A DNA stretch of 64,000 nucleotides. It comes from a virus. The position numbers were made by a program, and so were the translations under genes. Below, one piece after another: positions 43,657 to 63,905 of this stretch. The notes beneath the pieces were generated by a model. That model was not told the DNA's origin, made no database searches, and saw only the letters and a program-made list of their open reading frames with translations. Positions within the stretch are counted from its first letter, which is position 1; each line of letters starts with the position of its first letter. The stretch is taken from positions 77,738 through 141,737 of the IMG/VR virus record IMGVR_UViG_3300044692_000034. The stretch is one strand, 5' to 3'.

Positions 43657-43810
43657 CGGCCCGACCCCCCTTGGAATCTGACTCGCGGCTTGCTGCCCAT
43701 GCAGCGCCGCTGACTTTATTCGACTCCTAAGTGGGGGCTGACCCCGGCTTCGGTGGGCTCTAGGATGCCGAGCGGTGCGGAGTGCGTGTGCACTCCCTAG
43801 CCGTTCGGCG

Positions 43811-44263: not shown

Positions 44264-44664
44264 AGGACTGTGCTCTTGAATCGGGTCCGCGACCGCTTGC
44301 TCGCGAACGTTTTCTGAACCGAGATGCGTAGCTCCTTCTCGAACACCTTCGCCATCAGGATGGCGTTGGCTTCGAGGAACTTGGCACGGCCGCCACGCGG
44401 ATGCTTGAAGTGCAGCGCCTCATGTTGCTTGACGGCGTACGCTCCTTCAACACGGACGAGGACGTACCGTGGCAGGACGGTGACACTCACATGGTCGGCG
44501 AGCGAGTACCCGGGGTCTGGGTCACGTGCCGGGTCGCCGACTGGGATGTCGGCGATGGTGGCGAGCGCCAGCTCATCGCCAACAGTCTTGAGGACGTCGT
44601 GGCCAGCTTCTTCCATGGCCGCCACGAGCCGCTTTGCAAGACCGTCGAACTTGCTGCTAGGCAC
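44260..44664 (-). CDS. HK97 gp10-like neck protein
   Basis: YAVKQHE...HP.GG.AKFLE motif. Confidence 0.75.
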   Translation of the reverse strand: MPSSKFDGLAKRLVAAMEEAGHDVLKTVGDELALATIADIPVGDPARDPDPGYSLADHVSVTVLPRYVLVRVEGAYAVKQHEALHFKHPRGGRAKFLEANAILMAKVFEKELRISVQKTFASKRSRTRFKSTVL

Positions 44665-50645: not shown

Positions 50646-52232
50646 CTACTTGACCTTCAGGACGCGGAACGCGTTCGGCGAGAGCACCACCGACGTGTTC
50701 CGCCAGAAGGCGACGATGCCGCGCTGGCCCGTCGGCCGGCCGGACGTGCCGAACAGGTGCGGCACCAGCTCGATGTCCATGCCGACCCGGTCGACGATCA
50801 GGAAGTAGCGCCAGTCGCCGACCGCGAGGATCAGGTTGCCGGTGGCGATACCGCTCGCCATCGCCGAGCACTCGTTCGCCGGCCGCCCGAGGAGCTGCGC
50901 CCCGAGGTTGCCCGGCGTCGGGACCTGGTTCTGGAACCCGAGCTGGAGGTTCTGCACGAAGATGTTCGCGCCGCCCGCCGTGTCGAACTGGCGGGTGAGG
51001 TCGTAGACGGAGAGGTTGCCGACCCACTGCGCGCGGGCGCGGAAGCGGGCGGGCAGGTTCTCCCACACCTTGTAGATGTCGGCCACGGCGAACGTGGCGG
51101 AGCCGGCGCCGGTGACGACCGTCGTCGCGCCCGTCAGGAAGCCGCTCGGCTCGTCGGAGCCGTCGCCGTCCGTGAACTTCTGCGCCTCGACGTCGTCCTT
51201 GCCGTCCTGGATCATGACGGCGATGTCGGACTGGAGCGAACCCCAGTCCTGGCCGATCTCGACCGAGTACGGGATGAACGCGTCGCATCGGACCGGCGTG
51301 GCGTCCGGCTGCGCGAGCGTCGGCGAGTCGTCGGTCATCTGCGCGGCCTGCGCCTTGTACGACACCGAGACACCGGCGGAGCTGACGCCCTGCCACGTCG
51401 TCGTCGCGATGGACTCGACGCGGGCGATGTTGCGGTACGGGTTGACCGAGTGGTTCGACGTCGGGATGATCGTCGGGTCGAGCGTGAACGGCACCGCGAA
51501 GCCGCCGCCGGAGCCGGCGGTCGACAGCGCGCGCTGCTCCTCGTTCGTCAGCGGGCGGCCCATGAGGCTCTTGCCGAACGCGCGCTTGTACTCCGGCGAG
51601 CCCGTCGACAGGATGCGCCGCGCGAGGAAGTCGGCCTGGTCGCTGCCCAGCTCGACGTCCGCGTCACGGAACTTCTCCAGCAGGCCCGCGATGTGCTCCT
51701 GCGCACGCTCCCGCGACACCTCGGGGTGCGGGAACGTCGTGTTCTTGTCCTCGAGCGCGCGGAGAACGTTGTCCCTCAGCTTCGAGGACTCCTCGGCGGG
51801 AGAGCGCGCCCAGTTGCGGATGGCCCAGACGTCGTAGATGTTGGTCGGACCGGAGTCGCGAGTCGTGTGAAACGTGGCACCGCGCTCCGACGACCCGCCG
51901 CCGTCGTTGATGTTCTTGAGCCGGTCCGCGCGAGCGCGCAGCTCCTTGATGATGTCCTCGTTCTCCTCCAGCTCCTCGTTGTAGTCGTTCCACGACTTGC
52001 GCTGAGCCTCCGGCATGATCTGGCCGGCGAACGCGGAGTCCAGCTCCGTCAGGGCGGTGCGGATCTGCGCCTGGCGGACCTCGAACTCCTCGATCGTGCG
52101 CGGCCGATCGTTCGTCGGCAGGCCCGCGAGGAAGAGGGCGTTGGACGTACGCTGCCACGACTCCTCGTCGTGCAGCAGGGAACGGAGGGCGGTCACGCCC
52201 GCCGGGATGGTGAGGGACTTCACAGTCTCCAC
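50646..52232 (-). CDS. HK97-fold major capsid protein with N-terminal delta domain
   Basis: Coiled-coil N-terminus; GGFAVP..LDPTII; GDG..EP.G; LLGRP; GDW..F.IVDR.G; AFRVL. Confidence 0.95.
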   Translation of the reverse strand: METVKSLTIPAGVTALRSLLHDEESWQRTSNALFLAGLPTNDRPRTIEEFEVRQAQIRTALTELDSAFAGQIMPEAQRKSWNDYNEELEENEDIIKELRARADRLKNINDGGGSSERGATFHTTRDSGPTNIYDVWAIRNWARSPAEESSKLRDNVLRALEDKNTTFPHPEVSRERAQEHIAGLLEKFRDADVELGSDQADFLARRILSTGSPEYKRAFGKSLMGRPLTNEEQRALSTAGSGGGFAVPFTLDPTIIPTSNHSVNPYRNIARVESIATTTWQGVSSAGVSVSYKAQAAQMTDDSPTLAQPDATPVRCDAFIPYSVEIGQDWGSLQSDIAVMIQDGKDDVEAQKFTDGDGSDEPSGFLTGATTVVTGAGSATFAVADIYKVWENLPARFRARAQWVGNLSVYDLTRQFDTAGGANIFVQNLQLGFQNQVPTPGNLGAQLLGRPANECSAMASGIATGNLILAVGDWRYFLIVDRVGMDIELVPHLFGTSGRPTGQRGIVAFWRNTSVVLSPNAFRVLKVK

Positions 52233-53353
52233 GGCTCCTTGGTGTTGCCTCGGAGAGGAGTGGGGGCTGACCCCGGCGCCTCAAGGTAATCGGGCCGCTC
52301 GCGGCGCTCTCGGCGCGGCTGCGGCCCCTCGACGATGTCCTCCTTGCCCGGGAGGGGCGGGTGTTCGCGCTGCCAAGCAGGCACGAAATCCTTGTCGCCG
52401 GCCGGTGTGTCAGCCGGCGTGTCTGCGCCCTCCTCGGACTCGCCCGAGGCGCGCTCCGCCGGCTCGTCAGCCGTTGCGTCTGGAGCTTCCGGAGTCGCCT
52501 CGCGGGCGCCCTCCGGCGTCTCCTTCTCGGCAGGTGACGTCTCGGCCGCGCCGTCTTCGGGGTCGGCCTTCTCGTCGGCGCGCTGAGTGGAGACGGTGAT
52601 GTGCTCGCGCGGCTGCTCACGCTCGGGCGAGACCTTGCGAGCAATCAGATCTGCGAGGGTTGCGCCCTCTCCGGCCATGCGCAGCATCTCCGGGTCGCCG
52701 AGACCGAGGCCCGCAGCGATGTACTCGTCCGTCAACGAGCGGAGACCGGCTGTCGCATCGGGATAGGCCGGGAACGTGACAGGCCCGAACTCGCTGACGC
52801 GCATCTCCTTGATGGTGCGCTCAGGAATGCCGTTCGGGTTGTGCTCGGAACGGGGCGGCTCCTGGTTCCAGTCCTCTTTGATGATGCTGAAGCGGAAGCT
52901 AGCGCCGTAGAGCCCGGCTTCGAGGCCGGGGAGAAGGGTGCTGCGCACGTAGTCGGCGTCGAGCAGGTCGACCTCGTACGCGCCACCGGTATTGTCCTCG
53001 GCGAGAGACCGGATCGGGCCGAGCGGCTTGCTACCGATCTGCGGGTCCCGGCCATGTTGGAACAGGACCTTCATGCCCGTCCTGTTCTCTTTGAACGTCT
53101 TCTTGGCAGCCCCGGGCGCGATGCGCTCCATGAAGTTGCCCTCGAACCAAGAGTCGATCTCGGTCCAGCGGTTGAACACGCAGAAGTGCCCGGCCATGAC
53201 TGGCGTGTCACCGTCGCCGGAGCCGTTCTTCGCGCGCAGCTCGATCCCCGGGATGGTTAGCTCTCCCTCGGAAGGGGGAGACCAGAGGCGGATGAGGTTG
53301 TCCCTCGGCGCCTCGTACCGACCCGGAGGCGGCGGCGTTGACTTGCCACTCAT
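52220..53353 (-). CDS. HK97-family prohead protease
   Basis: F.ERIAPGA, VLFQHG, YGASFRF, RTIKE....EFGPVTFPAY..A. Confidence 0.93.
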   Translation of the reverse strand: MSGKSTPPPPGRYEAPRDNLIRLWSPPSEGELTIPGIELRAKNGSGDGDTPVMAGHFCVFNRWTEIDSWFEGNFMERIAPGAAKKTFKENRTGMKVLFQHGRDPQIGSKPLGPIRSLAEDNTGGAYEVDLLDADYVRSTLLPGLEAGLYGASFRFSIIKEDWNQEPPRSEHNPNGIPERTIKEMRVSEFGPVTFPAYPDATAGLRSLTDEYIAAGLGLGDPEMLRMAGEGATLADLIARKVSPEREQPREHITVSTQRADEKADPEDGAAETSPAEKETPEGAREATPEAPDATADEPAERASGESEEGADTPADTPAGDKDFVPAWQREHPPLPGKEDIVEGPQPRRERRERPDYLEAPGSAPTPLRGNTKEPWRL

Positions 53354-53383: not shown

Positions 53384-55117
53384 CTAGTCACCGCCACCTG
53401 TACTTTCGTTAGGACCGGGTCCTTTGTCCATGAAGGGCCACAGGAACGTGCCGGGTTCCCGCGCAGCGCGATGCTTGACGAACGTGTTCCCGAAGCGCAG
53501 GTTGACCATTGTCCGGTCGTCGTCGACCTCGGCCTGCTCGGCAAGTCGCCGCTGCTCCTCCGCTTCTGTCGCCTCGCGCGCGAGCCGCACCTGCCGCGCG
53601 TAGTCGTTCTCTTCGATGACGTCGGCGTCTGGGACGTCGTAGTCTGCTGACGCCGCGCCGCTTGTGCCGTTCGCGCTCGCGCCGGCACCGTTGCCATTCC
53701 CGTTCGAGTTGCCGTTCCCGTTGCCGTTGAGGAGGTTGCTGCTGTTCGTCTCCGGCTGTGACGCTGAGCCGGGCGGTTGGAGCTGGACGCTGACGAGCCC
53801 CGTGTGCTTCAGCAGCGTCATGTCCCCGGCGTTGACAGCCTTCACGACGCTGTCAGGCTCGAAGCCTTCCTTCACAAGGATGGCGATCGTGGTGGCGTCC
53901 GCCTGGAGCGCAGCGGCCGTGTCGGTCGCGTCCTCCTGGAGGAAAGAGATGTCGCTCGGGTCGTACCACAAGCGGACGCCCTGCCCGCGCGGAAGGTCGA
54001 CGATCCGCTGGAGGCTGCCGCACGCGTTGCGCCACATGGGACGCATCGCGAGGTCACCGAACGCGCGCTTGGCCTGCCCGTAGTTGCTGTACGTGCTGGC
54101 GTCAAGACCTTCGCTCAGCCCGATGATGATCGGCGGGACTCGTGCGGCTGCGCAAATGCGTGTCTCGCCCGCGCCCTGCACTTCCTTGAATGACGCCTGT
54201 TGCATGTTGGCTCCGACGAGCGTCACGTCAGCGCCGCCACCGAGGTAGATGGTCTTGTAGGCGTTCATGACGCCCGTGTGTTCTTCCTCGAACGCCTCGA
54301 CGAACTCCTTGAAGTTCTTCGGCGTGATGTCCTTGTCGAGCGAGACGATCGTGTTCACTGTCGCGCCCTGCTCGAAGAACTTCAGCTTGTGTGTGGTGGC
54401 TGCGTCGTCGCTCCGGATCTCTTTGATGACCGGAGTGATCCACGACATGCCACGAAACCGGCCCGTCGGGTCCGGCACGAGCTTGAAGTGAGCGACCTCG
54501 TCCGCGAGAAATGTTTTGACCGGCTGGCCTGAGTTGCGGCCACCCGGATGGTAGATGTAGCCGATGACCTCGGTGTCCCACTCCCACAGAGGATGATCGC
54601 TGTTCGGCTTGAGCTGCGACCCACCGACGATCGTGACCCAGTCAGGCTGGAGGCGCCGGCACGACCACGGCGCCGTACCGAACTGCGACTTCGGGCCACG
54701 CGCGATGAACGCGTTGCCGGCGAGGTCAACATCGAGGGACATGATTGACAGTAGGTCGCTTGTGCTGCCGCCCGCCCAGGGCTCTTCCAACGGGAGTAGC
54801 GCTTGCGTTCCGAAGAGCGCGCCGGCTTTGCCGTTGTCCATCTGCTGGAACTGGAAGCGGGCTTCGCTGAACAGCAGCATGCGTGCGACGAGGCACGCGT
54901 ACACGACGCCGTTGTTCTTCATGGCGCCTTGCACCATGCCCTGGAAGTCGGCGGGGATCTCGTCGGCTGGCTGCCCGAGGCTGTACTGGTTGTTGTTCGG
55001 CATCGGGAAGCCGTTGAGCATGATCATCGACAGCCAGTCGTCGACGGTCAGTGTCGGCCACGTCTCCCCAGATCGCGCCTGCTGACGCCCCCCGAGCCAG
55101 TCACGAAGGACGCTCAT
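53384..55117 (-). CDS. HK97-family portal protein
   Basis: NGVVYAC, LAGNAF, EVAHF, RGMSWI, FFEQGAT, RICAAARVPP..IG, TYSNY. Confidence 0.95.
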   Translation of the reverse strand: MSVLRDWLGGRQQARSGETWPTLTVDDWLSMIMLNGFPMPNNNQYSLGQPADEIPADFQGMVQGAMKNNGVVYACLVARMLLFSEARFQFQQMDNGKAGALFGTQALLPLEEPWAGGSTSDLLSIMSLDVDLAGNAFIARGPKSQFGTAPWSCRRLQPDWVTIVGGSQLKPNSDHPLWEWDTEVIGYIYHPGGRNSGQPVKTFLADEVAHFKLVPDPTGRFRGMSWITPVIKEIRSDDAATTHKLKFFEQGATVNTIVSLDKDITPKNFKEFVEAFEEEHTGVMNAYKTIYLGGGADVTLVGANMQQASFKEVQGAGETRICAAARVPPIIIGLSEGLDASTYSNYGQAKRAFGDLAMRPMWRNACGSLQRIVDLPRGQGVRLWYDPSDISFLQEDATDTAAALQADATTIAILVKEGFEPDSVVKAVNAGDMTLLKHTGLVSVQLQPPGSASQPETNSSNLLNGNGNGNSNGNGNGAGASANGTSGAASADYDVPDADVIEENDYARQVRLAREATEAEEQRRLAEQAEVDDDRTMVNLRFGNTFVKHRAAREPGTFLWPFMDKGPGPNESTGGGD

Positions 55118-55212: not shown

Positions 55213-55503
55213 ATGACCCTCACGAAACTGACCTTTGTTGCTGCTCTCGTTGCCCTCCCGCTCGCGGCTTGCGGCCAGGGACGACAGACGGCGACGACGT
55301 GCACCGACAACGACTTCTACAGTCGCGCCGTCGACATCGCTCACGTCACGTACGGCATTCCGAAGGACGGCCGGTACCTCGCGCTGAGCGCCGCCCATTA
55401 CGACAACGGGCAGGCCGCGACGGTGCATGTGCGTTTCGACGGCACGACGCACGATGTCGACGTCCGTTGCGTCAACGGGCACGCCGAAGTCGACACTCAC
55501 TGA
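55213..55503 (+). CDS. Lipoprotein
   Basis: Lipobox LAAC after hydrophobic signal. Confidence 0.7.
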   Translation: MTLTKLTFVAALVALPLAACGQGRQTATTCTDNDFYSRAVDIAHVTYGIPKDGRYLALSAAHYDNGQAATVHVRFDGTTHDVDVRCVNGHAEVDTH

Positions 55504-55736
55504 GGGGTCCTCCGGTTGCCTCGCGGTGGCGAACTGACCAAGAACGCCACCGCGAGCAACAGGACCCCTAGCACCACGATGGCGACCCAGGGGGCTAGTC
55601 CCCATGCCAGGCCCCCGGTTACGCAGCACAGCCCCAGGACCGCGAGGAGCTGCGCGACATAGAGCCGCGCCTTCTGCGACGGGACGGCGCGCTCGGTACG
55701 CCTCCCTGTCGGGTTTGTGTTAGTCGCGGCTGCCAT
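55497..55736 (-). CDS. Small 2-TM membrane protein (pre-portal)
   Basis: Two TM helices; GGAGG RBS. Confidence 0.7.
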   Translation of the reverse strand: MAAATNTNPTGRRTERAVPSQKARLYVAQLLAVLGLCCVTGGLAWGLAPWVAIVVLGVLLLAVAFLVSSPPRGNRRTPQ

Positions 55737-55966
55737 CGAGCCTCCCGTAGAGGACCGTGGTCACGGGCTCTCCTCCCGTGGAGACGGTCGGTTCGATGGC
55801 CGCATCGTGTGGCGTTTCGTGCGTGCGGGTCATGGCCGGGCACGGTACGCGCGCCCGCGATTGGACCAGCCGGTGGACTACCCGAACGGCAGTTTGCTTA
55901 CGCCGTGTTCAGGTAGAACGCTGGCAACGACGCGCCAATCCCGGCGCTTGGTCATAGGAGGCCATC

Positions 55967-56221
55967 GTGAGCAAGGACACCAAGGACTTCCCGTCCGCCC
56001 TCGGCGCCCCGGCCGAGCACCCCGCGAACCCGAAGATCGTCGGTCCGTCGACGGATCCGCTGGTCGTTGAGGAGGGCACCCGCAAGACGGTGCCGATCCA
56101 GGACCCGCCCGGCCCGTCGCCGTTCAAGTACGTCGACGACCGGGGCAAGGAGCATGACAGCGCCGGCGACGCGATGGACGCGACGCGCAAGAACGCCGAG
56201 CGCAAGAACGACAGCGACTAG
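55967..56221 (+). CDS. Hypothetical protein
   Basis: AGGAGG RBS. Confidence 0.65.
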   Translation: MSKDTKDFPSALGAPAEHPANPKIVGPSTDPLVVEEGTRKTVPIQDPPGPSPFKYVDDRGKEHDSAGDAMDATRKNAERKNDSD

Positions 56222-56227
56222 CTGCCG

Positions 56228-56593
56228 GTGAGCGACTTCATCGAACGCGTCCGTGAGGTCGCTCGCAACCACGGATACGCAATCGGCGTCCACGGCTCGC
56301 AGAAACGTGACCTGGACCTCATGGCCATGCCGTGGACGCCTGAAGCGTGCAGCGCGCAGGACCTCGTAGACGCCATCTCCGAGGAACTCGACCTCCATCA
56401 GCGTGCCGTCAACCTGTACGCCGAGCCCGATGGGCCGCGCGTCATGCCGAACCCGGAGCCGAAGCCATGGGGCCGGCTCGCGTGGTCACTCGACGGCTGT
56501 CCGTCTCACTGGAAGTACGTCGACATCAGCGTCGCGCCGCGAGCCGGAGAAGCAGTTCCGGTGATCGCCTACCAAGTGGTAACTTCGAAGTGA
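56228..56593 (+). CDS. Minimal nucleotidyltransferase-like phage protein
   Basis: GYAIGVHGSQKRDLDL (GS..DxD) and distal YVDIS. Confidence 0.55.
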   Translation: MSDFIERVREVARNHGYAIGVHGSQKRDLDLMAMPWTPEACSAQDLVDAISEELDLHQRAVNLYAEPDGPRVMPNPEPKPWGRLAWSLDGCPSHWKYVDISVAPRAGEAVPVIAYQVVTSK

Positions 56594-56599
56594 CATGCC

Positions 56600-56627
56600 C
56601 GGCCGGGGTGGGAGCGCACCCCGGCCG
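56600..56627. terminator. Hairpin between convergent genes
   Basis: cggccggggtg-ggagcg-caccccggccg. Confidence 0.65.
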
Positions 56628-56633
56628 AGTTGT

Positions 56634-56999
56634 CTAGAGCCGCCAGGGCTCCGAGCCGGGATCGTACCCCTTCGTCTCGCTTGACTTCGCGGCGTTCTGG
56701 TGTCGCTTCAGGTGCGCCTCGACGCCGGCGCGGTCCGCATCGGGGATGTTCGCTCCCGGTAGACGCGCCAGCGCGTTGTTGACGCCGTTCAGGTTTGCAG
56801 CTCCCGGCTTGCCATTGACGACCTCGTGGTGCGGGAACTTGTACGCCGCCTTCTTCGTCTGGTCCGCGCTTCCGTCGACCCACGCGTACATCAGCCGCAG
56901 TGTCGACCTGCCGGCGTCGTCAGGGATCTTGCTGACCTGAGAATTCGCATCCCAGGTCCCTTCGACCACCTTCGTGTTGTGTGGACCGATTGCAGGCAA
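56634..56999 (-). CDS. Stand-alone head-associated domain (WD...YAWVD...YKFPHH) ending EPWRL
   Basis: GAGGAGG RBS before TTG; domain I recognise as usually fused to phage prohead proteases. Confidence 0.7.
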   Translation of the reverse strand: MPAIGPHNTKVVEGTWDANSQVSKIPDDAGRSTLRLMYAWVDGSADQTKKAAYKFPHHEVVNGKPGAANLNGVNNALARLPGANIPDADRAGVEAHLKRHQNAAKSSETKGYDPGSEPWRL

Positions 57000-57400
57000 C
57001 TGACCTCCTCGATGCAAGTTGCCGTGCACGGTACCGGCGACAGCCCGAGCGTGTGTACCATGCCTATGCTCCCGGCCGGACAGCCCGGGGCGTGTATGGC
57101 TCAAAGGCGTTGACGGCGGCTGGTGGTCTATGGGAGGACTCCGGCCGCCGTTGGCGTCTCCTGTACCATGCGCCGCGCGACGTCGAGCGGGCCGCCTCAT
57201 ACCCTGCGACCCCAGAGGGCGAACACTCTCCACGACCCCATAACGACCAGGTGCGGGGAGCCGTCGGATCAGGTGCGAACAATCTCCCGGCTAGTCCTCC
57301 GACGCCGCCTACTTTCTCGCGTAGTGGGTATCGGGGGTGCGCAGGCTGCGCGCACCCGTGTAGCCTGCCGGCCACTCTTGGCCCGCCGTAGGAGCGCCCC

Positions 57401-57535
57401 GTGACTAAACTCGCTGCTGTACTTGCCGCTGTGTCAGTCGTGTTCGCCGGTGCTGTCCTTTTCGCACCGCACGCGATCCCTGACCACCAGCCAAGTGTCC
57501 GCCTTGGCCAGACGCAATACGCATCTGTTCGTTAG
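57401..57535 (+). CDS. 44-aa membrane peptide (not in ORF track)
   Basis: AGGAG RBS; MTKLAAVLAAVSVVFAGAVLFAPHAIPDHQ... Confidence 0.5.
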   Translation: MTKLAAVLAAVSVVFAGAVLFAPHAIPDHQPSVRLGQTQYASVR

Positions 57536-57627
57536 CGTGTCAAGTTCTTGAGCGGCCGTGGCCGTGGCTGTGGGCGCTGCTTGTACACGTTTGAGTCTGC
57601 GTGAACTACGATCACGAACATCTTGGT

Positions 57628-57702
57628 TCCTTGATATGCGTCGGACTGCAAATCCGTTCCCATCGCAAGGTGACGCCGGTTCGATCCCGGCCCGGGGATT
57701 CA
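57628..57702 (+). tRNA. Atypical/degenerate tRNA-Cys(GCA)-like element lacking a D-arm
   Basis: Anticodon arm cgga-ctGCAaa-tccg; T arm gccgg-ttcgatc-ccggc; U discriminator; weak acceptor stem. Confidence 0.5.
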
Positions 57703-57875
57703 TGACGACGATACCTGTACTCGGATCGACGAAAGTCCGCGAAGTTGAGTGGCCGCCATGCGCCGGCGAATGCCCCAGGTGCACGGCGCGCCTTCAATTC
57801 CACAGCCTGACGGCATGGTGCCTCTCGTGTGGCTGGTCACTCAACCGCGACCACGAGCCCGGCAAGACGGCATGA
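57702..57875 (+). CDS. Small Zn-ribbon protein
   Basis: CPRC...WCLSCGW. Confidence 0.5.
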   Translation: MTTIPVLGSTKVREVEWPPCAGECPRCTARLQFHSLTAWCLSCGWSLNRDHEPGKTA

Positions 57876-58168
57876 CCGGCAAGTTCGCAATCAGTGGCAG
57901 GATCCCAGTCGACGACCAGACGACCGTGTCGCAGGTGTCAGGCGTCGGCGCACCCGTGAAGGACGAGCATGGCAACGTCATCGGCGAGGTCGTCGGTGTC
58001 GGTCACGACCGCCGTGGCCTCTCCGTCGACATGGTGCTGACTGAGCAGGCGTACAGCGACGTCCTGCACGGCCGTGAGCCGGTCTTCTTTACGGCGCCTA
58101 CTCGTGCCGACGCTGAGCGGACATACCGTACGGCGCTCGCGCGACTACGCCGTCAGCACTGGTTCTAA
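57872..58168 (+). CDS. Hypothetical protein with prohead-protease-like segment
   Basis: PVKDEHGNVIGEVVGVGHDRRGLSVDMVL; ATGA coupling. Confidence 0.6.
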   Translation: MTGKFAISGRIPVDDQTTVSQVSGVGAPVKDEHGNVIGEVVGVGHDRRGLSVDMVLTEQAYSDVLHGREPVFFTAPTRADAERTYRTALARLRRQHWF

Positions 58169-58231
58169 AGACGGCAACGGCTCGCCGTCCTAGCGAGCCG
58201 TCAACCTGGAGGGGTTTGGACAACCGGGATG

Positions 58232-58606
58232 CTACACAGCATCCGGGCTCTTGTCGAAGAGTCGCGCTAGCACCCGCTCCACCGCACGGTGTAGGTCGGA
58301 CTCCAGCGCTGCGGCGTCTCCGACTGTGGCAGGCCCAGCCGTGCCGGCAGGGAACGTCACCTCGACCGACACACCTGTCGGCCGGATTCGGATGTCGTAG
58401 ACCGCGCCGGGCGTCTGGCATTCGGACGCAGCCATCTGTTCGACGCCGCGCCGCATCCAATCAAGCGCCTCCGTGATGAACGTCAGGGCGTGGCGGCCGT
58501 CGGAGATGCCGGGGTGCGAGTACGCGCGGTTGAGGGCGTCGCGGGCGTTTGCGATGCACTCGCGCGGCGCGACGCGGTCGGGGCCGATGGGGTCGTTCCA
58601 GTTCAC
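58232..58606 (-). CDS. Hypothetical protein
   Basis: GTGA coupling with upstream gene. Confidence 0.55.
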   Translation of the reverse strand: MNWNDPIGPDRVAPRECIANARDALNRAYSHPGISDGRHALTFITEALDWMRRGVEQMAASECQTPGAVYDIRIRPTGVSVEVTFPAGTAGPATVGDAAALESDLHRAVERVLARLFDKSPDAV

Positions 58607-59268
58607 CTGATCACCAAGTAGTCGCCACGGTTGCGCTTCGGGGGGTTTGTCATCGCTGCCCAGATTCGTGTTTCGAGTTCGGCGATGTGCATGAACGCTG
58701 GTTCGTCGAGCCCTAGCCACCACTCGTTGAGGTCACGCCATGCCCACTCTTCGTCGGAGAGTTCGAGGCATTCGGGCTTGCCGCACCGCGACCCCATGAC
58801 CTGGCTGCCGCATTCGGTGCAGCCCCGGATGCGTGCTACCACTGGCGTCCCCTCGTACGCGACGATGTCTCCGCCGATGGCCTGCTCGTACTTGACGCCA
58901 CCTTCGAGGACCACGGTGCGCCTGTTCTGGTCAGCTACGGCACGCTCGAACTGCTCGGCGAGTCGTTCGCGTGCCGCGTAGTAGGCGGCTTTCTGCGACG
59001 TGTTGTCGCCGGTCACATAGCCGCTGCTGGAGAAGGTTTCGACGTGCAGGCTGTAGGGGACGGCGTACCCGCCCCTGATCTCGTTCTCCGACAGGAGCCC
59101 TGCCTCCCTGACGAGCTTCTCCCATCGTGCGGCTTCGTCTGCTGGCAGCGGAAGCCCTTCGAATCGTTCGTCGATCGACTTCAGCTCTTCGACGCATTCG
59201 TGTATGGCTGCCATGACCTCGGTCCGGAGCATGAGGGTCTCCTCAGCGTAGGAGGCCCATGAAGCCAT
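58603..59268 (-). CDS. Mosaic protein with capsid- and portal-like segments
   Basis: See finding; gap-free motif matches to this phage's capsid protein. Confidence 0.65.
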   Translation of the reverse strand: MASWASYAEETLMLRTEVMAAIHECVEELKSIDERFEGLPLPADEAARWEKLVREAGLLSENEIRGGYAVPYSLHVETFSSSGYVTGDNTSQKAAYYAARERLAEQFERAVADQNRRTVVLEGGVKYEQAIGGDIVAYEGTPVVARIRGCTECGSQVMGSRCGKPECLELSDEEWAWRDLNEWWLGLDEPAFMHIAELETRIWAAMTNPPKRNRGDYLVIR

Positions 59269-59548
59269 CGTGCATGAGGCTGTCGCGTACGAACGCCGGG
59301 ATTGCTTCGAACGCGGTCTGTACTTTGACCGTGATCTTCTGGCCGGTTGACGGCTCGATGGTGTAGCCGAAGAACATGTACGGCATGCCGCCGTACATGA
59401 CGTAGTCCGGGTGGGTTACGACGCGGTACGCGTAGCGCGGCCACACCGGAGTCTCTGTGTTTGCTGCCGCTGGTACACCCTCGGGCATGGACTCCGCCCA
59501 GGGGAGCGCCGGCTGCGGCGTGGTGCTCTTCTCGCGTTGCTTACGCAT
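59243..59548 (-). CDS. Hypothetical protein (portal N-terminus-like segment)
   Basis: Operon coupling; weak similarity to portal N-terminus. Confidence 0.55.
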   Translation of the reverse strand: MRKQREKSTTPQPALPWAESMPEGVPAAANTETPVWPRYAYRVVTHPDYVMYGGMPYMFFGYTIEPSTGQKITVKVQTAFEAIPAFVRDSLMHDGFMGLLR

Positions 59549-60029
59549 GCTGGTACTCAGCGTACCCCGCGACGGCTTCGATGCGCTGATCGTGCCGTTG
59601 CAACCGGTACGCAAGGTAGTCCTTGACCTCACGAGCGTACGGTCCCTTTGACCAGCCCTCCAGCATGAGTACGTCATCCTTCGATTGGACGTCAACCGAG
59701 GCGTCGTATGGCTGTCGGTCTGTGGAGAAGAGATGCGCCCCGTCCCAGCCGACGTTGTCGCGGACGTACGCCACGACCTGACTGAGCGTGCGACCCACGA
59801 CGCATGTCGGCTTGCTTGCGTCAGACGCCGGTACCGCCTGAACGTCAATCTCGGGCGTGTCGCAAATCGCGTCCGCTGCGACTGCACGAGCTATCCCGGT
59901 AAGCGACGTAGTCAACGACTTGATGACGTCGGCTGGTAGCTCGCCGCTGTCGACCAAATCCAGCGGTATCGAAAGACTGAACAGGTGCGAGGGGTAGCGG
60001 CGCGTGGGCAGGCGGTCTGGGTCAGGCAT
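59541..60029 (-). CDS. Hypothetical protein
   Basis: Overlapping stop/start with neighbours. Confidence 0.6.
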   Translation of the reverse strand: MPDPDRLPTRRYPSHLFSLSIPLDLVDSGELPADVIKSLTTSLTGIARAVAADAICDTPEIDVQAVPASDASKPTCVVGRTLSQVVAYVRDNVGWDGAHLFSTDRQPYDASVDVQSKDDVLMLEGWSKGPYAREVKDYLAYRLQRHDQRIEAVAGYAEYQHA

Positions 60030-60768
60030 CGAGTCGAGGGGTTTGGAGTTTGTGCATGACCAAGGCAAGCATCGCTTGCGTCGAGTTGTCCGACTCCTCG
60101 ACCATGCGAAGTTCGTCGTACAGCTCAGGCTCGGCCTGTCGGAACAGCTCGGCTTGGCGGTTCGCTATCGCCAGCGACGCAAGTTCCTGCGAATAGAACG
60201 TCGTCTCCTGACACGCTCTGCACGTCCCCGACCAGTGGTCGCTGCGGCTCTCTGGTTCTTTTGCTTTGACATGGCCGCCGCACTTGTGGCACGTGAAAAC
60301 GTCACCGATCGCTTGGTCTCGGTATTGACGAGAACGCTGCTCCGTCAGGGGGCCGAGCGCTTCGACATCGCGGCGGCGTGCGTAGTCGAGAAATTCGAGG
60401 CGAATCGTAGGCAAGTCGTCAGGGTGCTCAGTCACCGGCACGCCGAAGAGTGTCTTGCGCGGATCTGTCGCGCTGCCGCTGAACCCGACAGCGAAGCCTG
60501 TGTCATGAGGATCGGCGCTGACCATGTCGACCCAATCCACCTTGTGGAACCTGACCTCAAGGTACTTGCCGAGCTCAAACGCCAGTCGCTTACCGGCCGT
60601 GTCGAGCAGGCCCCTGGCGCTCGCTACCTCGCGCGGCAGCGGCTCTATGCCCACCGTCCCGGGTGTTACGCGAGGGTCCACCATGAAGTGCTTCACGCTT
60701 TTGCCCTGCATTTGCGCGGCCTGGAGCACAGCTCGTATCCGACCAAAAGGTGTGGTTGGCTCAGTCAA
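60022..60768 (-). CDS. Hypothetical protein with Zn ribbon
   Basis: TCHKCG...TCRAC; TLFGVPV motif. Confidence 0.6.
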   Translation of the reverse strand: MTEPTTPFGRIRAVLQAAQMQGKSVKHFMVDPRVTPGTVGIEPLPREVASARGLLDTAGKRLAFELGKYLEVRFHKVDWVDMVSADPHDTGFAVGFSGSATDPRKTLFGVPVTEHPDDLPTIRLEFLDYARRRDVEALGPLTEQRSRQYRDQAIGDVFTCHKCGGHVKAKEPESRSDHWSGTCRACQETTFYSQELASLAIANRQAELFRQAEPELYDELRMVEESDNSTQAMLALVMHKLQTPRLDA

Positions 60769-61159
60769 CGGTGAACCTAAAGGTGTCGTAGCCGAACAGT
60801 GTGTTGGCGTGGCGGGTGTAGGCAGGCGGGATGTCCTGCCCGCGCTCGGCGTACTGCCTGGCGATGTGCGCGAGGTACGCGTCTTCCATGTGGTCAGCGG
60901 CCGTGCGCTCCGTGCCCGGCTTCCACACGTACGTGTAGGCGCAGTCAGCGCACGCGTAGATGCAGTCACCGACGTAGTAGACGCGGTCAAAGATGGCGAT
61001 GCCACGGTCAAGTGCAGCGCGGATCGTCGGGTGGTCGAGCATGAGCGAGTACGACGGGCTCACATCCACCCGGTAGATGAACGTCGCCAAGCGGCCACAG
61101 TTGGGCGCCTCGCACTTGGTGCCGAGGGGGATCTCAGGGAGCGGGTCCCACATGCTCAT
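60761..61159 (-). CDS. Hypothetical Zn-binding protein
   Basis: CEAPNC...CADC. Confidence 0.6.
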   Translation of the reverse strand: MSMWDPLPEIPLGTKCEAPNCGRLATFIYRVDVSPSYSLMLDHPTIRAALDRGIAIFDRVYYVGDCIYACADCAYTYVWKPGTERTAADHMEDAYLAHIARQYAERGQDIPPAYTRHANTLFGYDTFRFTVD

Positions 61160-61512
61160 GCCGGCGGCTCCAGCTTGCTCGTCTCGACGGTCTTCTCTCC
61201 GCGTGGCATGGGGTCCACGTACCAGCTCGGGGCATCCGGACCTGCGGTCTGGACGAACGTGCCGGTAGTGGTGCCGCCGTCCTTACTGACCCTGATCTCG
61301 AAGACGCGGTGGCAGGCGGGGCACTCGAACGCATCCGCGTACGGCGGCTCACGGAACGCCATGTCCGCCGGCCGCATGACCATGACGTCCGGGTGTGCGC
61401 AGTACGGGCACGGCATCCACTGCGCGACCTCGAGGCCATGCCCTGTGACCCTTGCGCGCTTCATCGCGGTGGCGTTCAGCTCCTCCATGCTGCTGAACGT
61501 TTCAGGCTCCAT
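61156..61512 (-). CDS. Hypothetical Zn-ribbon protein
   Basis: CPYC...CPAC; AAGGA RBS. Confidence 0.6.
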   Translation of the reverse strand: MEPETFSSMEELNATAMKRARVTGHGLEVAQWMPCPYCAHPDVMVMRPADMAFREPPYADAFECPACHRVFEIRVSKDGGTTTGTFVQTAGPDAPSWYVDPMPRGEKTVETSKLEPPA

Positions 61513-61684
61513 TTGCTGTCCTTTCGTACCTGCGCCATTCGCGGTTGTCTCGGGCTCTCTCAAGTCGAACAGCGGCGCGCTCCCTGCCCAGCTCGCAGTA
61601 CTGCCCGTGTCCGTGCACGTGGCAGTGCCCGCCCTTGCCGATACGGCCGCGCATACGACTCGCCTGCCGGTTACGCCCACGCAT
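61502..61684 (-). CDS. Small basic hypothetical protein
   Basis: Fills gap between neighbouring genes. Confidence 0.4.
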   Translation of the reverse strand: MRGRNRQASRMRGRIGKGGHCHVHGHGQYCELGRERAAVRLERARDNREWRRYERTANGA

Positions 61685-62060
61685 ACCGCACCTTGCGTGG
61701 CGGCTCCGGCACGCGTACCTCGCGTATGGGTTGCATGCTCTCACCCTCCGGGACGATGACGAATTCCAAAGGCCCGACCGACGGCAACGTTTCGAACAAA
61801 CCTTTAGGCCACTCGACCGTGTACTCCATCCGGTAAGTCGTCCCGACAGGTGCGCTCGTGTCGATCTCAGGGCGTAGGCATGCCCCTTGCTCCGGTACCA
61901 CCACCCGCGCCCGCTCACGCACCACCACCCCGCCACTCTCCACGCAGGACCACACACTCAACGCGTCCGTGAGGTCACATGGACCGTCCTGGTCGCAGAG
62001 CACCACACGCGGCGGGAGTATGACACCTTGCTCAACCTCTATCCGTGTCCGCTCGTGCAT
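61671..62060 (-). CDS. Hypothetical protein, probably leaderless
   Basis: TACGCT hexamer 7 nt upstream of ATG. Confidence 0.55.
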   Translation of the reverse strand: MHERTRIEVEQGVILPPRVVLCDQDGPCDLTDALSVWSCVESGGVVVRERARVVVPEQGACLRPEIDTSAPVGTTYRMEYTVEWPKGLFETLPSVGPLEFVIVPEGESMQPIREVRVPEPPRKVRYAWA

Positions 62061-62067
62061 GCCCCAC

Positions 62068-62073
62068 AGCGTA
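62068..62073 (-). promoter_or_regulatory. Putative -10 element (TACGCT)
   Basis: Actinobacterial TANNNT 7 nt before ATG; no RBS. Confidence 0.45.
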
Positions 62074-62465
62074 CCCCACGACCCAAAAAGTTGACTGAGA
62101 ACTGTCTCCCCCCAGACCCCCCACGCGACTTCCGTTGCGATGCCGCCTGCGGCAGCGAATTGAAAGTCTGTGCTCGTGCCGTGGGCACGAGCGGAGAGCG
62201 GTACAGCGGAAGCGAGCCGGCGAGCTGCCGTGAGGGCTGTGGGGGTGCGGCAGTGGACCCGGGCGCGACTGAGCGTGGGGGTCCTTGCCGCGTGGGTGGG
62301 TCACAGCATCCGTGAACCCGGCTGTGTGGCGTGCGGCATGCCTGTATGGGTGGCCGGGGCGCGCACCCCCGAAGGGGGTTTTCGGGCTGCGGTTGCCTGT
62401 ATGGGCCGACGGCGGGCCGCAGCGTGGGCGTGTGCGGCGGTGTCTGTGGCGTTGGGTGGGCGCGA

Positions 62466-62493
62466 GCCCTAACCCGCCGATGCGGGCTAGGGC
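62466..62493 (-). terminator. Hairpin at end of FtsK-like gene
   Basis: gccctaacccgc-cgat-gcgggctagggc overlapping the stop codon. Confidence 0.45.
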
Positions 62494-63905
62494 GTGGGGT
62501 CGGTGTCTGTGCCGTCCCCGAACGGCACAGCACGGCCGTCGTCCGGAAGCGTCCGGTGTAGCCACTCGTCCGCCCGGAGCCCATGAGCGCGACGCGCAAG
62601 ATTTTCGATGTCGGAGTCCGTCAGGTGGAACGCTTTCACGCGCAACGGAACGGCCTCCTCCGCCGCGAGCCACCCGATCCCCCGCGAGTTTTCGGTCGGC
62701 GGGATGGTTGAGGCGTCGTACCCCTGGCTCGCTGCCCGCGTGCCGAGGATCATGTCGCTTGCTTCTGCGGTGCCGGACCGGAACGCCCACCGGTACCCGA
62801 TGAGGTCCCGGAGCGATGTGGGGATCACGTCGTGTGACGGCTTCTGCGCCGCGCCGATGAAGATCACGCCGGGGGCTCGTCCCCTGCGGACCAGGTCCGT
62901 GGCGGTCTCCATGAGTGCGGTGCCGAGCGCCTTGCTCCCTACCTTTGGTCCGGCAAGGCTTGCGTAGTACGGCATCTCGTCCATGACGACGACGATGAGC
63001 TTGAGGCCCATGCTCCTCGTGATCGCCCTCGCCCCCTCCGCCTTCAGGATGTCCTTGCGGCCGTTCATCTCCTCCTGAACGGTTTTCAGGACGTCGAGTG
63101 CTTCTTTGCCGTCAAGGCCGACGAACGCTTTGCAGCACGGCGTCCATGCCGTCATCTCGTAGTCCTTGCCGTCCAGGATGTACAGGTCAACGTCGGGGTC
63201 GAGGGCGGCCGTAGCCACAATCTGGCTCATGCCGACGCTCTTACCCGACCCCGGCTCCCCACCGAGGAGAAGGTTTCGTTGCACGAGCGTGATGGACCGC
63301 TCGTAACCGTCCTCGTCGACAGCGACAGGGATCGGCTCCCACATCGACAACTGCTGCCGGTACAAGTGAGGCCACTCGTACGACTCACCCGTCATGAACG
63401 GGTCACGGCGGACGAGGACAGCCTGAGCCCTGGATGCGTCCATCGGCCGCGCCGGGTCACGAGTCACCTTGACCATGCTGCACTTGAGGGCGCCCGCCAT
63501 CTTCTGCGCCGCTGCGTCAAGCGCAGCGATCTCATCGCCGTTCGCGACCTTCAGCGTCAGCTTCTCCCCGGTCGGGACGTGCGCGACACGCAGCACACGC
63601 GGCGGGTCGACATTCCGCCTGGCGTCCATCGCCGCGCGCCGCCACTGCCGGCGCACCATGCTCGTCGTCAACCACCGCGTCAGCACGCCACGAACCCGGG
63701 CGTTTGACACGAGCACAACCGTTGTGACACTTGTCAAGCCGATCCCGATCTGGGTGCCGAGCCTTAGGCTCAGGGTGAGAGCAGTCACGAACACGACGGT
63801 GAACATCGCCAGCTCGACCCTGACACGCCACAGCAGTCGCACAAACGACGCGATCACATCAGTGCCTTCGCTCTTCCGACTGCCGCTGCGAGATGTTGAA
63901 GCCAT
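62487..63905 (-). CDS. FtsK/SpoIIIE-family DNA translocase (TraB/TcpA-like)
   Basis: N-terminal TM helices; Walker A GGEPGSGKS; Walker B VVVMDE; RRGRAPGV; AAQKPS.DVIPT.LRD. Confidence 0.9.
   Translation of the reverse strand: MASTSRSGSRKSEGTDVIASFVRLLWRVRVELAMFTVVFVTALTLSLRLGTQIGIGLTSVTTVVLVSNARVRGVLTRWLTTSMVRRQWRRAAMDARRNVDPPRVLRVAHVPTGEKLTLKVANGDEIAALDAAAQKMAGALKCSMVKVTRDPARPMDASRAQAVLVRRDPFMTGESYEWPHLYRQQLSMWEPIPVAVDEDGYERSITLVQRNLLLGGEPGSGKSVGMSQIVATAALDPDVDLYILDGKDYEMTAWTPCCKAFVGLDGKEALDVLKTVQEEMNGRKDILKAEGARAITRSMGLKLIVVVMDEMPYYASLAGPKVGSKALGTALMETATDLVRRGRAPGVIFIGAAQKPSHDVIPTSLRDLIGYRWAFRSGTAEASDMILGTRAASQGYDASTIPPTENSRGIGWLAAEEAVPLRVKAFHLTDSDIENLARRAHGLRADEWLHRTLPDDGRAVPFGDGTDTDPTP

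What the first reader, a model, noticed from the sequence alone, without database searches (positions are those of the whole stretch)
56634..60768. Cluster of small genes built from fragments resembling head-assembly proteins (candidate decoy/mimic system)
Seen: upstream of the portal, where terminase genes normally sit, at least five small ORFs each carry a short segment resembling a head protein. These are 56634-56999 (protease-associated domain plus the protease's C-terminal EPWRL), 57872-58168 (protease-like segment), 58603-59268 (capsid plus portal segments), 59243-59548 (portal N-terminus-like) and 60022-60768 (TLFGVPV, like capsid LLGRP). They are intact, translationally coupled ORFs that are diverged from the phage's own genes, which argues against recent duplication debris. 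Established: portal and capsid proteins are triggers of anti-phage sensors such as Avs2 and CapRel, and satellites use capsid-interfering proteins. Inference: this may be an array of molecular mimics that titrate host sensors, poison competing phages' head assembly, or get co-packaged.
Basis: partly seen in the sequence, partly recalled or inferred. Interest (0 to 1): 0.85.

Follow-up and report, generated by a model that had tools for sequence, protein, structure and literature searches.

The report
Mostly ordinary small genes; one capsid-tagged protein
The supposed array of head-protein mimics is mostly a block of lineage-specific small phage genes with chance-level resemblance to head proteins, but one gene is a genuine split-off prohead-protease accessory domain that carries the protease's own C-terminal tail, probably a tag for loading into the capsid.

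Summary
The window is the last 64 kb of a 141.7-kb uncultured actinophage-like genome. The five ORFs exist. Four have homologues in one related phage, so they are real genes, but they are not all translationally coupled: 57872-58168 lies on the + strand, and 56634-56999 has its own RBS and terminator.

Resemblance to head proteins is at chance level for 57872-58168, 59243-59548 and 60022-60768, by BLAST, Pfam, PHROGs, NCBIfam and profile-profile tests with genome-wide controls.

ORF 58603-59268 is a zinc-ribbon protein. It has a suggestive match to the capsid delta domain (hhalign P 6e-4, best of 182 genes). Its portal-like stretch (Pfam E 6.8e-6, below threshold) is absent from its homologue.

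ORF 56634-56999 is confirmed as head-related. It encodes a widespread unnamed domain, fused in 41 of 86 relatives to S78 prohead proteases and in others to ClpP/S49 types. It ends in EPWRL, as this phage's protease does. This W-x-L end is conserved in 45 of 119 protease homologues. It recurs on stand-alone accessory-domain proteins and on an unrelated small head-module protein in other phages.

The best reading is a portable capsid-docking tail, not a decoy array.

The parts
56634..56999 (-). Gene for a 121-aa stand-alone prohead-protease accessory domain (conserved W, HH, H..H) with a disordered C-terminal tail ending EPWRL.
   Evidence: TTG start with a GAGGAGG RBS 4 nt upstream. Codon score 57. 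1333 representative homologues, fused to S78 in 41 of 86 and to ClpP/S49-type proteases in others. AF2 pLDDT 92, with the tail at 52-63.
56637..56651 (-). Codons for the C-terminal EPWRL (GAG CCC TGG CGG CTC).
   Evidence: Only two of 1060 open frames of at least 80 codons in the genome end W-[RKQLH]-[LIM].
56601..56626 (.). 10-bp GC-rich hairpin between the convergent genes 56228-56593(+) and 56634-56999(-); probably a bidirectional terminator.
   Evidence: Read directly from the sequence.
52220..53353 (-). Prohead serine protease: S78 domain at residues 39-203, a long acidic linker, and a tail ending ...KEPWRL (codons 52223-52237).
   Evidence: Pfam PF04586 E 1.8e-21. Sequence. The tail is conserved in homologues.
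50646..52232 (-). HK97-type major capsid protein with an N-terminal delta (scaffold) domain of about 240 aa.
   Evidence: Pfam PF05065 E 1.4e-30 at residues 243-526. Its start overlaps the protease stop.
53384..55117 (-). Portal protein.
   Evidence: Pfam PF04860 E 9.3e-36. 81% identical to the portal of relative L003.
58603..59268 (-). 221-aa (or 209-aa from ATG 59232) zinc-ribbon protein. It has a delta-domain-like stretch (residues 19-62, 59083-59214) and a portal-like stretch (residues 82-129, 58882-59025).
   Evidence: Pfam portal E 6.8e-6, below threshold. hhalign against the capsid delta domain gives P 6e-4, with 0 of 60 shuffles reaching it and rank 1 of 182 genes. The homologue P0004 is 41% identical and has no portal hit. 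Weak Rad51 match on the same stretch. Atlas neighbours are viral Zn-ribbon proteins.
59243..59548 (-). 101-aa conserved small protein of unknown function.
   Evidence: 46% identical to L004 1227-1532. No family hits. Portal-profile rank 64 of 183.
59541..59984 (-). The start is uncertain: codon 59984 is CTG, and TTG codons lie at 59957 and 60068.
   Evidence: 33% identical to L004 803-1222. Start codons.
60022..60768 (-). 248-aa zinc-ribbon protein (CxxC...CxxC) of unknown function.
   Evidence: 35% identical to L004 37-786. No capsid signal (hhalign P 0.14). No hits in Pfam, PHROGs, NCBIfam or Atlas.
60761..61512 (-). Two further overlapping small cysteine-motif genes, 60761-61159 and 61156-61512, at the head of the co-oriented run.
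   Evidence: Codon scores 75 and 51, 4-nt overlap. Cys motifs are visible in the translations.
58232..58606 (-). 124-aa gene coupled to 58603-59268 by a GTGA overlap; the last gene of the run.
   Evidence: Codon score 44. Start context.
57872..58168 (+). 98-aa gene on the opposite strand. Possibly PRC-barrel-like, not protease-like.
   Evidence: The homologue L003 1303-1599 hits PRC-barrel at E 0.0015. Protease-profile rank 31 of 183, at an unrelated site.

Best explanation
The region between the FtsK/TraB-like gene and the portal is an accessory-gene island, not an array of head-protein mimics. It has two parts. One is a co-oriented, overlapping run of lineage-specific small genes (61512 to 58232), several of them zinc-ribbon proteins of unknown, possibly nucleic-acid-binding or regulatory, function. 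The other is a mixed-orientation patch (55.1-58.2 kb).

Only one gene is demonstrably head-related, 56634-56999. It encodes, as a separate protein, a roughly 105-aa His-rich domain that in most other phages is fused to the prohead protease. After a short disordered linker comes the same C-terminal EPWRL that ends this phage's own S78 protease.

Inferred mechanism: the W-[RL]-L carboxy-terminal tail is the clade's capsid-docking peptide, the counterpart of the HK97 gp4 C-terminal targeting tail. Because protease and accessory domain are encoded separately here, each carries its own copy of the tail. Both are then recruited to the interior of the assembling procapsid, where the accessory domain acts beside the protease.

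What is shown: domain identity, the fusion partners, tail identity, tail conservation, and tail recurrence on other small head-module proteins. What is inferred: that the tail binds the capsid or delta domain, and that the protein is encapsidated.
For: Domain identity. The 121-aa protein has 1333 representative homologues (E<=1e-3), at N-terminal, internal, C-terminal or stand-alone positions. Of 86 scanned, 41 carry Peptidase_S78, 15 carry S49, 6 carry ClpP, and single members carry Mu-like protease, Mu F or capsid domains. One stand-alone homologue, P0010, sits between portal and protease in a TerS-TerL-portal-X-protease module.

Structure. The AF2 model is confident (pLDDT 92) with a low-confidence tail at residues 110-121.

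Tail specificity. Both proteins end EPWRL, with 4 of 15 nucleotides different. They are the only 2 of 1060 open frames of at least 80 codons in the 141.7-kb genome that end W-[RKQLH]-[LIM].

Tail conservation. 45 of 119 protease homologues end W-x-[LIM], and 59 of 119 have the motif within the last 9 residues, after hypervariable linkers. The consensus is PLYG..KE.PSWRL. None of 119 capsid homologues ends this way.

Tail portability. Stand-alone accessory-domain proteins from other contigs end ...IYGQYEEEPAWRL (L022)...PIYGQEVAPSWQL (P0010) and ...EEDWRL (P0083). In phage L088 the protease ends ...PLIGPAGHRESWRL and an unrelated acidic 111-aa head-module protein ends ...ELRGPGGMYGNWRL. Its homologue in L092 has a divergent linker but still ends GGWKL.

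Against fragment mimicry of the rest. BLAST controls, profile libraries and genome-wide hhalign ranks show no signal.

From my own knowledge: the C-terminal part of the HK97 gp4 protease is its capsid-targeting element (Duda, Oh & Hendrix 2013, J Mol Biol 425:2765). I saw the reference cited but could not read the text. T4 and P1 use terminal capsid-targeting sequences for internal proteins (PMC9024508).
Against: No experiment or structure shows that the W-R-L tail binds the capsid. The closest relative of this phage (L003) lacks the 56634-56999 gene at the syntenic site, although its protease keeps the tail (...KEAWRL), so the gene is dispensable or lies elsewhere. Only 2 of 12 other stand-alone accessory-domain representatives carry the exact tail. 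Of the six other loci screened for a second tail-bearing protein (four of them near-complete), only two related ones, L088 and L092, show one. The functions of the other small genes remain unknown, so a head-related role for some of them, especially 58603-59268, is not excluded.
Confidence: 0.6

Rival explanations
1. ORF 58603-59268, alone among the run, is a real head-assembly-related protein. It would be a zinc-ribbon protein whose N-terminal helix-turn motif (L..ID..F.G..LP......W) copies the first part of the capsid delta/scaffold domain, and whose middle copies a portal motif. It would then join or perturb the scaffold-portal interface in the procapsid, as an assembly factor, a packaged protein or a competitor.
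For: hhalign of the two-sequence alignment against a 58-sequence capsid alignment gives P 6e-4 and score 34.5 on delta-domain residues 50-111. None of 60 column shuffles reaches this (maximum 24.6), and the reversed control gives P 0.21. As a single sequence it is the best non-self match of 182 genes (28.3 against the next at 21.9). The motif is conserved in the 41%-identical homologue. Pfam Phage_portal E 6.8e-6 on residues 82-129 and PHROG portal E 0.0095. It ranks second of 182 non-self genes against my portal profile, at the same residues.
Against: With 182 genes tested, P about 1e-3 gives an expectation of about 0.2 chance hits. Both matched regions are helical, so composition and periodicity can inflate the scores. 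The homologue shows no portal hit at E<=1. The same stretch also matches Rad51 weakly (E 0.012). An unrelated 88-aa ORF scores higher against the portal profile. Atlas neighbours are generic viral Zn-ribbon proteins. The AF2 model was unusable (pLDDT 42). Only two family members exist.
Confidence: 0.15
2. The shared W-R-L carboxy terminus is not a capsid-docking tag. It would be another kind of signal, for example a recognition or autoinhibitory element for the protease itself, or a degron or binding site for a host factor. The accessory-domain protein would then be a regulator or substrate of the protease rather than capsid cargo.
For: The tail is found mainly on proteases. The accessory domain is a frequent fusion partner of catalytically unrelated protease families, which fits a regulatory partnership with proteases. 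No binding to the capsid has been shown.
Against: An unrelated acidic small protein in the head modules of L088 and L092 also carries the tail, which points to a location signal shared by several head-interior proteins. The HK97 precedent places targeting in the protease C-terminus (own knowledge, Duda et al. 2013).
Confidence: 0.12
3. One reading: the five ORFs form a system of molecular mimics or decoys of portal, capsid and protease. They would titrate host sensors such as Avs or CapRel, or poison the head assembly of competing phages.
For: The small genes evolve much faster (33-46% identity) than portal (81%), capsid (86%) and protease (73%) between the two related phages, as expected for conflict genes. 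One protein carries an exact copy of the protease tail, and one has weak capsid- and portal-like stretches.
Against: Three of the five ORFs show no similarity to head proteins above genome background. The claimed motifs of 57872-58168 are not conserved. The five are not one transcription unit. The tail-bearing protein belongs to a large family of normal head-module components. No PADLOC or defence-related evidence was sought or found. Fast evolution is equally expected for weakly constrained accessory genes.
Confidence: 0.05
4. The resemblances are debris of a decayed second head module: pseudogenised portal, protease and capsid.
For: On the minus strand, the order of portal-like ORFs followed by the protease-tail ORF is roughly colinear with a head module.
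Against: No colinear six-frame similarity to portal, protease or capsid. The ORFs are intact, carry a codon-usage signal, and keep their length and order in a relative at only 33-46% identity. The accessory-domain gene has a strong RBS and a terminator.
Confidence: 0.02

Closest known systems
C-terminal capsid-targeting region of the HK97 gp4 maturation protease (Duda, Oh & Hendrix 2013; recalled from own knowledge)
   Same: An S78-family prohead protease whose catalytic domain is followed by a linker and a C-terminal element that is not needed for catalysis. The tail here is conserved across the clade although the linkers are hypervariable.
   Different: The sequence is unrelated: HK97 gp4 ends ...FPSNLGK, against ...KEPWRL here. 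Here the same tail is also carried by a separately encoded non-protease protein. Targeting has not been tested.
Capsid-targeting sequences of T4 internal proteins and P1 DarB; encapsulin cargo-loading peptides
   Same: Short terminal peptides shared by several otherwise unrelated proteins direct them into an HK97-fold shell (T4 and P1: PMC9024508; encapsulins: own knowledge).
   Different: The T4 and P1 signals are N-terminal. Encapsulin peptides have a different consensus. Here the tag is a carboxy-terminal W-[RL]-L shared with the protease, in siphovirus-like actinophages.
SaPI1 CpmB and the phage 80alpha scaffolding protein (shared C-terminal capsid-binding residues; own knowledge)
   Same: Two proteins share a C-terminal motif that binds the major capsid protein. 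This is the known example closest to the mimic or competitor idea.
   Different: CpmB is satellite-encoded and redirects capsid size. Here both proteins are encoded by the same phage, and the second belongs to a family normally fused to the protease, so cooperation is more likely than competition.
Prohead proteases with a fused accessory domain (S78, S49/ClpP-type and Mu I-type multi-domain proteins, e.g. P0006-P0154; Halobacterium phage ChaoS9 prohead protease in BFVD)
   Same: The same domain of about 105 aa, 39-61% identical over the best hits. W40, H57, H58, H96 and H100 are invariant in the 70-sequence alignment A5.
   Different: In this phage the domain is split off, encoded 3.3 kb upstream of the protease gene in an accessory-gene patch, and carries its own copy of the tail.

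Membership tests
Prohead-protease accessory domain (unnamed; no Pfam, NCBIfam or PHROG model found) - ORF 56634-56999 | Significant sequence homology over the whole domain to the module found in prohead proteases. | tested here: met
   phmmer finds 566 representatives at E<=1e-10, covering residues 1-105. 41 of 86 scanned carry S78, and others carry S49 or ClpP.
Prohead-protease accessory domain - ORF 56634-56999 | Conserved signature residues (W, K..YKFPHH, H...H). | tested here: met
   W40, H57, H58, H96 and H100 are invariant in 70 sequences and present in the window protein.
Terminal capsid-targeting (cargo-loading) peptide - EPWRL tail | The peptide sits at the extreme terminus, is flexible, and is shared by proteins destined for the capsid interior. 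| tested here: met
   Identical last 5 residues on the protease and the accessory protein. Tail pLDDT 52-63. The tail recurs on other small head-module proteins. Only two frames in the genome carry it.
Terminal capsid-targeting (cargo-loading) peptide - EPWRL tail | The peptide is necessary and sufficient for encapsidation. | not testable with these tools
   This needs prohead expression, truncation and reporter-fusion experiments.
Phage_portal (PF04860) - ORF 58603-59268 | A profile match above the gathering threshold across the portal core. | tested here: not met
   25.9 bits against a 39.1-bit cut-off, with only profile positions 161-206 of 321 matched. The homologue P0004 has no hit at E<=1.
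HK97-type capsid delta/scaffold domain - ORF 58603-59268 N-terminus | Profile-profile similarity to delta domains beyond the genome background. | tested here: inconclusive
   P 6e-4, rank 1 of 182, 0 of 60 shuffles reach it. However, the expectation over 182 genes is about 0.1-0.2, and the region is helical.
Peptidase_S78 - ORF 57872-58168 | A profile match including the catalytic His region, conserved in homologues. | tested here: not met
   No Pfam hit. Protease-profile rank 31 of 183, at residues 1-7. The His and GL of the claimed motif are not conserved in L003 1303-1599, which weakly hits PRC-barrel.
Phage_capsid (PF05065) - ORF 60022-60768 | A profile match to the capsid fold, not only the 6-residue LFG.PV string. 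| tested here: not met
   No Pfam or PHROG hit. hhalign against the capsid alignment gives P 0.14, at a different site.
Phage_portal N-terminus - ORF 59243-59548 | Similarity to the portal N-terminal region. | tested here: not met
   hhalign P 0.21 at portal columns 161-190, not the N-terminus. Rank 64 of 183. tblastn finds nothing.

The most novel reading that the evidence does not exclude
HK97-like actinophages of this clade use a portable carboxy-terminal W-[RL]-L peptide as a general cargo-loading tag, a phage counterpart of encapsulin loading peptides. It would load the maturation protease, a His-rich accessory domain and other small proteins into the procapsid. In this phage a second island protein, 58603-59268, would enter by imitating the capsid's own scaffold helix. 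The island would then encode a set of internal head proteins kept outside the head operon.
Probability: 0.25. Interest if true: 0.65.

Novelty: new variant of a known kind. Interest (0 to 1): 0.42.

Why it matters
If the W-R-L tail is a docking peptide, it gives a simple sequence-readable rule for predicting which proteins are loaded into the capsids of a large clade of actinobacterial phages, and possibly delivered to the host. It would also give a short tag for engineering cargo into HK97-type shells. It draws attention to a widespread prohead-protease accessory domain with conserved histidines, which is not covered by the Pfam, NCBIfam or PHROG models searched here and has no similar solved structure in these searches. 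Its role in head maturation is unknown. The check also shows that eye-matched short motifs between small ORFs and head proteins in GC-rich phage DNA are mostly chance.

Tried and rejected
- Megablast of the region and tblastn of three cluster ORFs against 50,697 phage records: no match.
- The search for related loci for the 221-aa and 248-aa proteins in IMG/VR and JGI metagenomes: no relatives.
- AF2 of the 221-aa protein with a two-sequence alignment: pLDDT 42, unusable.
- Fold searches with the accessory-domain model: Foldseek against PDB gives nothing at E<=0.001 (best 0.92). VIA-align wide gives a best Z of 3.9, so no informative fold match. A profile search of PDB sequences gives only E>0.5 noise.
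- Complex prediction of capsid plus the 121-aa protein: no verdict (score 0.00, controls not run). This is neither support nor evidence against.
- Decayed second head module: rejected.
- A tRNA in 57.4-57.8 kb: ARAGORN finds none, and Rfam gives only a sub-threshold tRNA-Sec-like match.
- dN/dS was not computed. At 33-46% amino-acid identity the synonymous sites are saturated.
- I could not read Duda et al. 2013 or Veesler et al. 2014 in the held library.
- Small-gene blocks between TerL and portal in L090 and the P0172 contig: no tblastn hit from the window's cluster in L090; no DNA was held for the P0172 contig, so it could not be compared.

Full report
CONTEXT. The window is the last 64 kb of a single 141,737-bp IMG/VR virus record, estimated 96% complete. 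It has about 64% G+C, and nearly all long genes lie on the minus strand. The head genes are clear: portal 53384-55117 (PF04860, E 9e-36), S78 prohead protease 52220-53353 (E 2e-21), and an HK97-type capsid protein 50646-52232 with an N-terminal delta domain of about 240 aa. The portal is at most 46% identical to portals of Rhodococcus and Gordonia phages. The host is therefore probably a member of the Mycobacteriales, and the phage is distant from isolated ones. The only TerL match is at genome 43000-44652. An FtsK/SpoIIIE-family gene sits at 62487-63905.

GENE MAP. I trained a codon-usage model on the long genes and combined it with start-site inspection. On the minus strand this gives 61156-61512, 60761-61159, 60022-60768, 59541-59984 (start uncertain), 59243-59548, 58603-59268 (or 59232), 58232-58606, 56634-56999 and 55497-55736. 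On the plus strand it gives 57872-58168, 56228-56593, 55967-56221 and 55213-55503. The run from 61512 to 58232 has 4- or 8-nt start/stop overlaps. ORF 57872-58168 is on the other strand. ORF 56634-56999 is an isolated unit with a GAGGAGG RBS 4 nt before a TTG start and a 10-bp GC hairpin after its stop. The claim of five translationally coupled ORFs is therefore only partly right.

ARE THEY GENES? One related uncultured phage was found on two Logan contigs, L003 and L004. It shares the portal at 81%, the capsid at 86% and the protease at 73%. It keeps the same order of small genes: homologues of 60022-60768 (35%), 59541-59984 (33%), 59243-59548 (46%) and 58603-59268 (41%), then on the opposite strand a homologue of 57872-58168 (34% over 41 aa). 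Intact frames of matching length at such divergence show that these are real, constrained genes, though they evolve much faster than the head genes. No other relatives exist in the phage, IMG/VR or JGI collections. The relative has no counterpart of 56634-56999 at that site.

DO THEY RESEMBLE HEAD PROTEINS MORE THAN CHANCE? tblastn of this phage's portal, protease, capsid and three neighbouring proteins against 55600-62500 gives no hit better than E 0.1. The same search against 18 other 6.9-kb segments of the genome gives equal or higher maxima: 21.2-27.3 bits, against 23.1 for the target. In Pfam, PHROGs and NCBIfam the only head-protein hit is Phage_portal for 58603-59268. I also ran profile-profile comparisons of each ORF, aligned with its homologue, against alignments of 58 capsids, 16 portals and 61 proteases. 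Fourteen of the fifteen were non-significant (P 0.075-0.95). The exception was 58603-59268 against the capsid. Genome-wide, the cluster ORFs other than 58603-59268 rank 14 to 171 of 183 genes against the portal profile and 21 to 181 against the protease profile.

For 57872-58168, the claimed protease His...GL pattern is not conserved in the homologue. That homologue instead gives a weak PRC-barrel hit (E 0.0015). For 59243-59548 and 60022-60768 nothing supports portal or capsid likeness. The LFG.PV string is conserved between the two homologues, but it is only a six-residue motif.

ORF 58603-59268. This protein has a C-terminal zinc ribbon (CxxC...C...C) followed by a strongly conserved DEEWAWRDL.EWW segment. 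Two weak head-like signals exist.

(i) Residues 82-129 match Pfam Phage_portal positions 161-206 (E 6.8e-6, 25.9 bits, below the 39.1-bit cut-off) and PHROG portal (E 0.0095). Against this, the homologue gives no portal hit at E<=1. The same stretch also aligns weakly to Rad51 (E 0.012). An unrelated 88-aa ORF next to TerL scores higher against a portal profile (P 3e-4). I regard this stretch as a generic helix-strand-GG pattern until shown otherwise.

(ii) Residues 19-62 align with capsid delta-domain residues 50-111, sharing L..ID..F.G..LP......W. The hhalign P is 6e-4 and the score 34.5. None of 60 column shuffles reaches it (maximum 24.6), and the reversed control gives P 0.21. It is the top non-self match among 182 genes (28.3 against 21.9 for the next). 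This is suggestive but not decisive. The expectation over 182 genes is about 0.1-0.2, and both regions are helical. The AF2 model was unusable, and Atlas neighbours are generic viral Zn-ribbon proteins.

ORF 56634-56999, THE SOLID PART. An exhaustive phmmer search finds 1333 representative proteins (566 at E<=1e-10) containing this domain of about 105 aa, at N-terminal, internal or C-terminal positions or standing alone. Of 86 scanned, 41 carry Peptidase_S78, 15 S49, 6 ClpP and 5 SDH-type ClpP-like domains. Single members carry Mu-like protease, Mu F or capsid domains. One stand-alone member lies between portal and protease in a canonical TerS-TerL-portal-X-protease module. The domain has invariant W40, H57, H58, H96 and H100 and no Pfam, NCBIfam or PHROG model. 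AF2 gives a confident model (pLDDT 92) with a flexible tail. The fold has no informative match among solved structures. It recurs in multi-domain viral proteins, including a haloarchaeal virus prohead protease. It is a normal head-module component that this phage encodes as a separate protein.

THE TAIL. The protease ends ...KEPWRL and the 121-aa protein ends ...SEPWRL. The codons differ at 4 of 15 positions, so the match is at protein level. Across all six frames of the genome, only these two of 1060 open frames of at least 80 codons end W-[RKQLH]-[LIM]. Among 119 protease homologues, 45 end W-x-[LIM] (24 of them WRL, 12 WLL), and 59 carry the motif within the last nine residues. The motif always follows hypervariable linkers, with the consensus PLYG..KE.PSWRL. 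None of 119 capsid homologues ends this way.

The tail is portable. Stand-alone accessory-domain proteins from other contigs end ...IYGQYEEEPAWRL...PIYGQEVAPSWQL and ...EEDWRL. In phage contig L088 the protease ends ...PLIGPAGHRESWRL, and an unrelated acidic 111-aa protein in the head module ends ...ELRGPGGMYGNWRL. Its L092 homologue is 77% identical in the N-terminal 73 residues and divergent afterwards, yet it still ends ...GGWKL. Six-frame scans of these loci gave no spurious hits. Three other loci (L089, L091, L093) showed only the protease, and L090 is cut off.

MECHANISM. The simplest reading is that W-[RL]-L-COOH is this clade's capsid-docking peptide, equivalent in role to the C-terminal targeting region of HK97 gp4. 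That role of gp4 is from my own knowledge of Duda et al. 2013; the text was not readable here, and HK97's own tail is unrelated. It would be analogous to the terminal capsid-targeting signals of T4 internal proteins and P1 DarB (PMC9024508). Because protease and accessory domain are split in this phage, each needs its own tail. Binding and encapsidation are inferred, not shown. The one complex prediction gave no verdict.

VERDICT. The decoy-array interpretation is not supported as a system. One element, the EPWRL-tagged accessory domain, is real and moderately interesting as a new variant of known capsid-targeting logic. One element, 58603-59268, remains an open and weakly supported candidate for a scaffold-like protein. 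The rest are lineage-specific small genes of unknown function.

Noticed in passing
window 57627-57699 (+): tRNA-like element. Rfam tRNA-Sec scores 23.2 bits (E 0.56, below the gathering score), and ARAGORN calls nothing. The six-frame translation shows the typical T-arm 'GIEPA' signature. It could be a degenerate tRNA or the remnant of an attachment site.
   Followed up: partly
window 62487-63905 (-): 472-aa protein with N-terminal hydrophobic segments and an FtsK/SpoIIIE ATPase domain (PF01580, E 2.4e-9). It resembles the TraB-type translocases of actinomycete conjugative elements, which is unusual next to a phage head module.
   Followed up: no
genome 42366-42632 (-), outside the window, immediately downstream of TerL (43000-44652): 88-aa ORF at the position where a portal gene would normally follow TerL. 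It gives the best non-self hhalign score of the genome against a portal profile (31.5, P 3e-4, portal columns 263-332). This may be chance or a relic of a rearrangement that separated TerL from the portal.
   Followed up: no
L088 4810-5145 and L092 8910-9263: A family of acidic 111-117-aa head-module proteins in related metagenomic phages. They have a conserved N-terminal half and a divergent linker, but retain a W[RK]L carboxy terminus like their proteases.
   Followed up: partly
L090 2048-7952 and the contig of P0172: More distant relatives carry a block of about 6 kb with 13-14 small genes between TerL and the portal, or directly upstream of the portal. The block includes a hexapeptide-repeat transferase and a GerE/sigma-r4-like regulator. 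The TerL-portal junction seems to be an insertion hotspot in this lineage. No tblastn match from the window's cluster in L090; the P0172 contig had no DNA and could not be compared.
   Followed up: partly
window 55213-55503 (+), 55497-55736 (-), 55967-56221 (+): A lipoprotein-like gene, a small membrane-protein gene and an 84-aa gene lie between the portal and the island. They are conserved in the relative at 46%, 68% and 73%, better than the island genes.
   Followed up: no
window 57000-57560: About 550 bp without a convincing ORF lies upstream of 56634-56999. It presumably holds that gene's promoter.
   Followed up: no
window 52229-52232: The protease stop codon and the capsid GTG start overlap (GTGA), so the tail-encoding codons lie directly before the capsid gene start.
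   Followed up: yes
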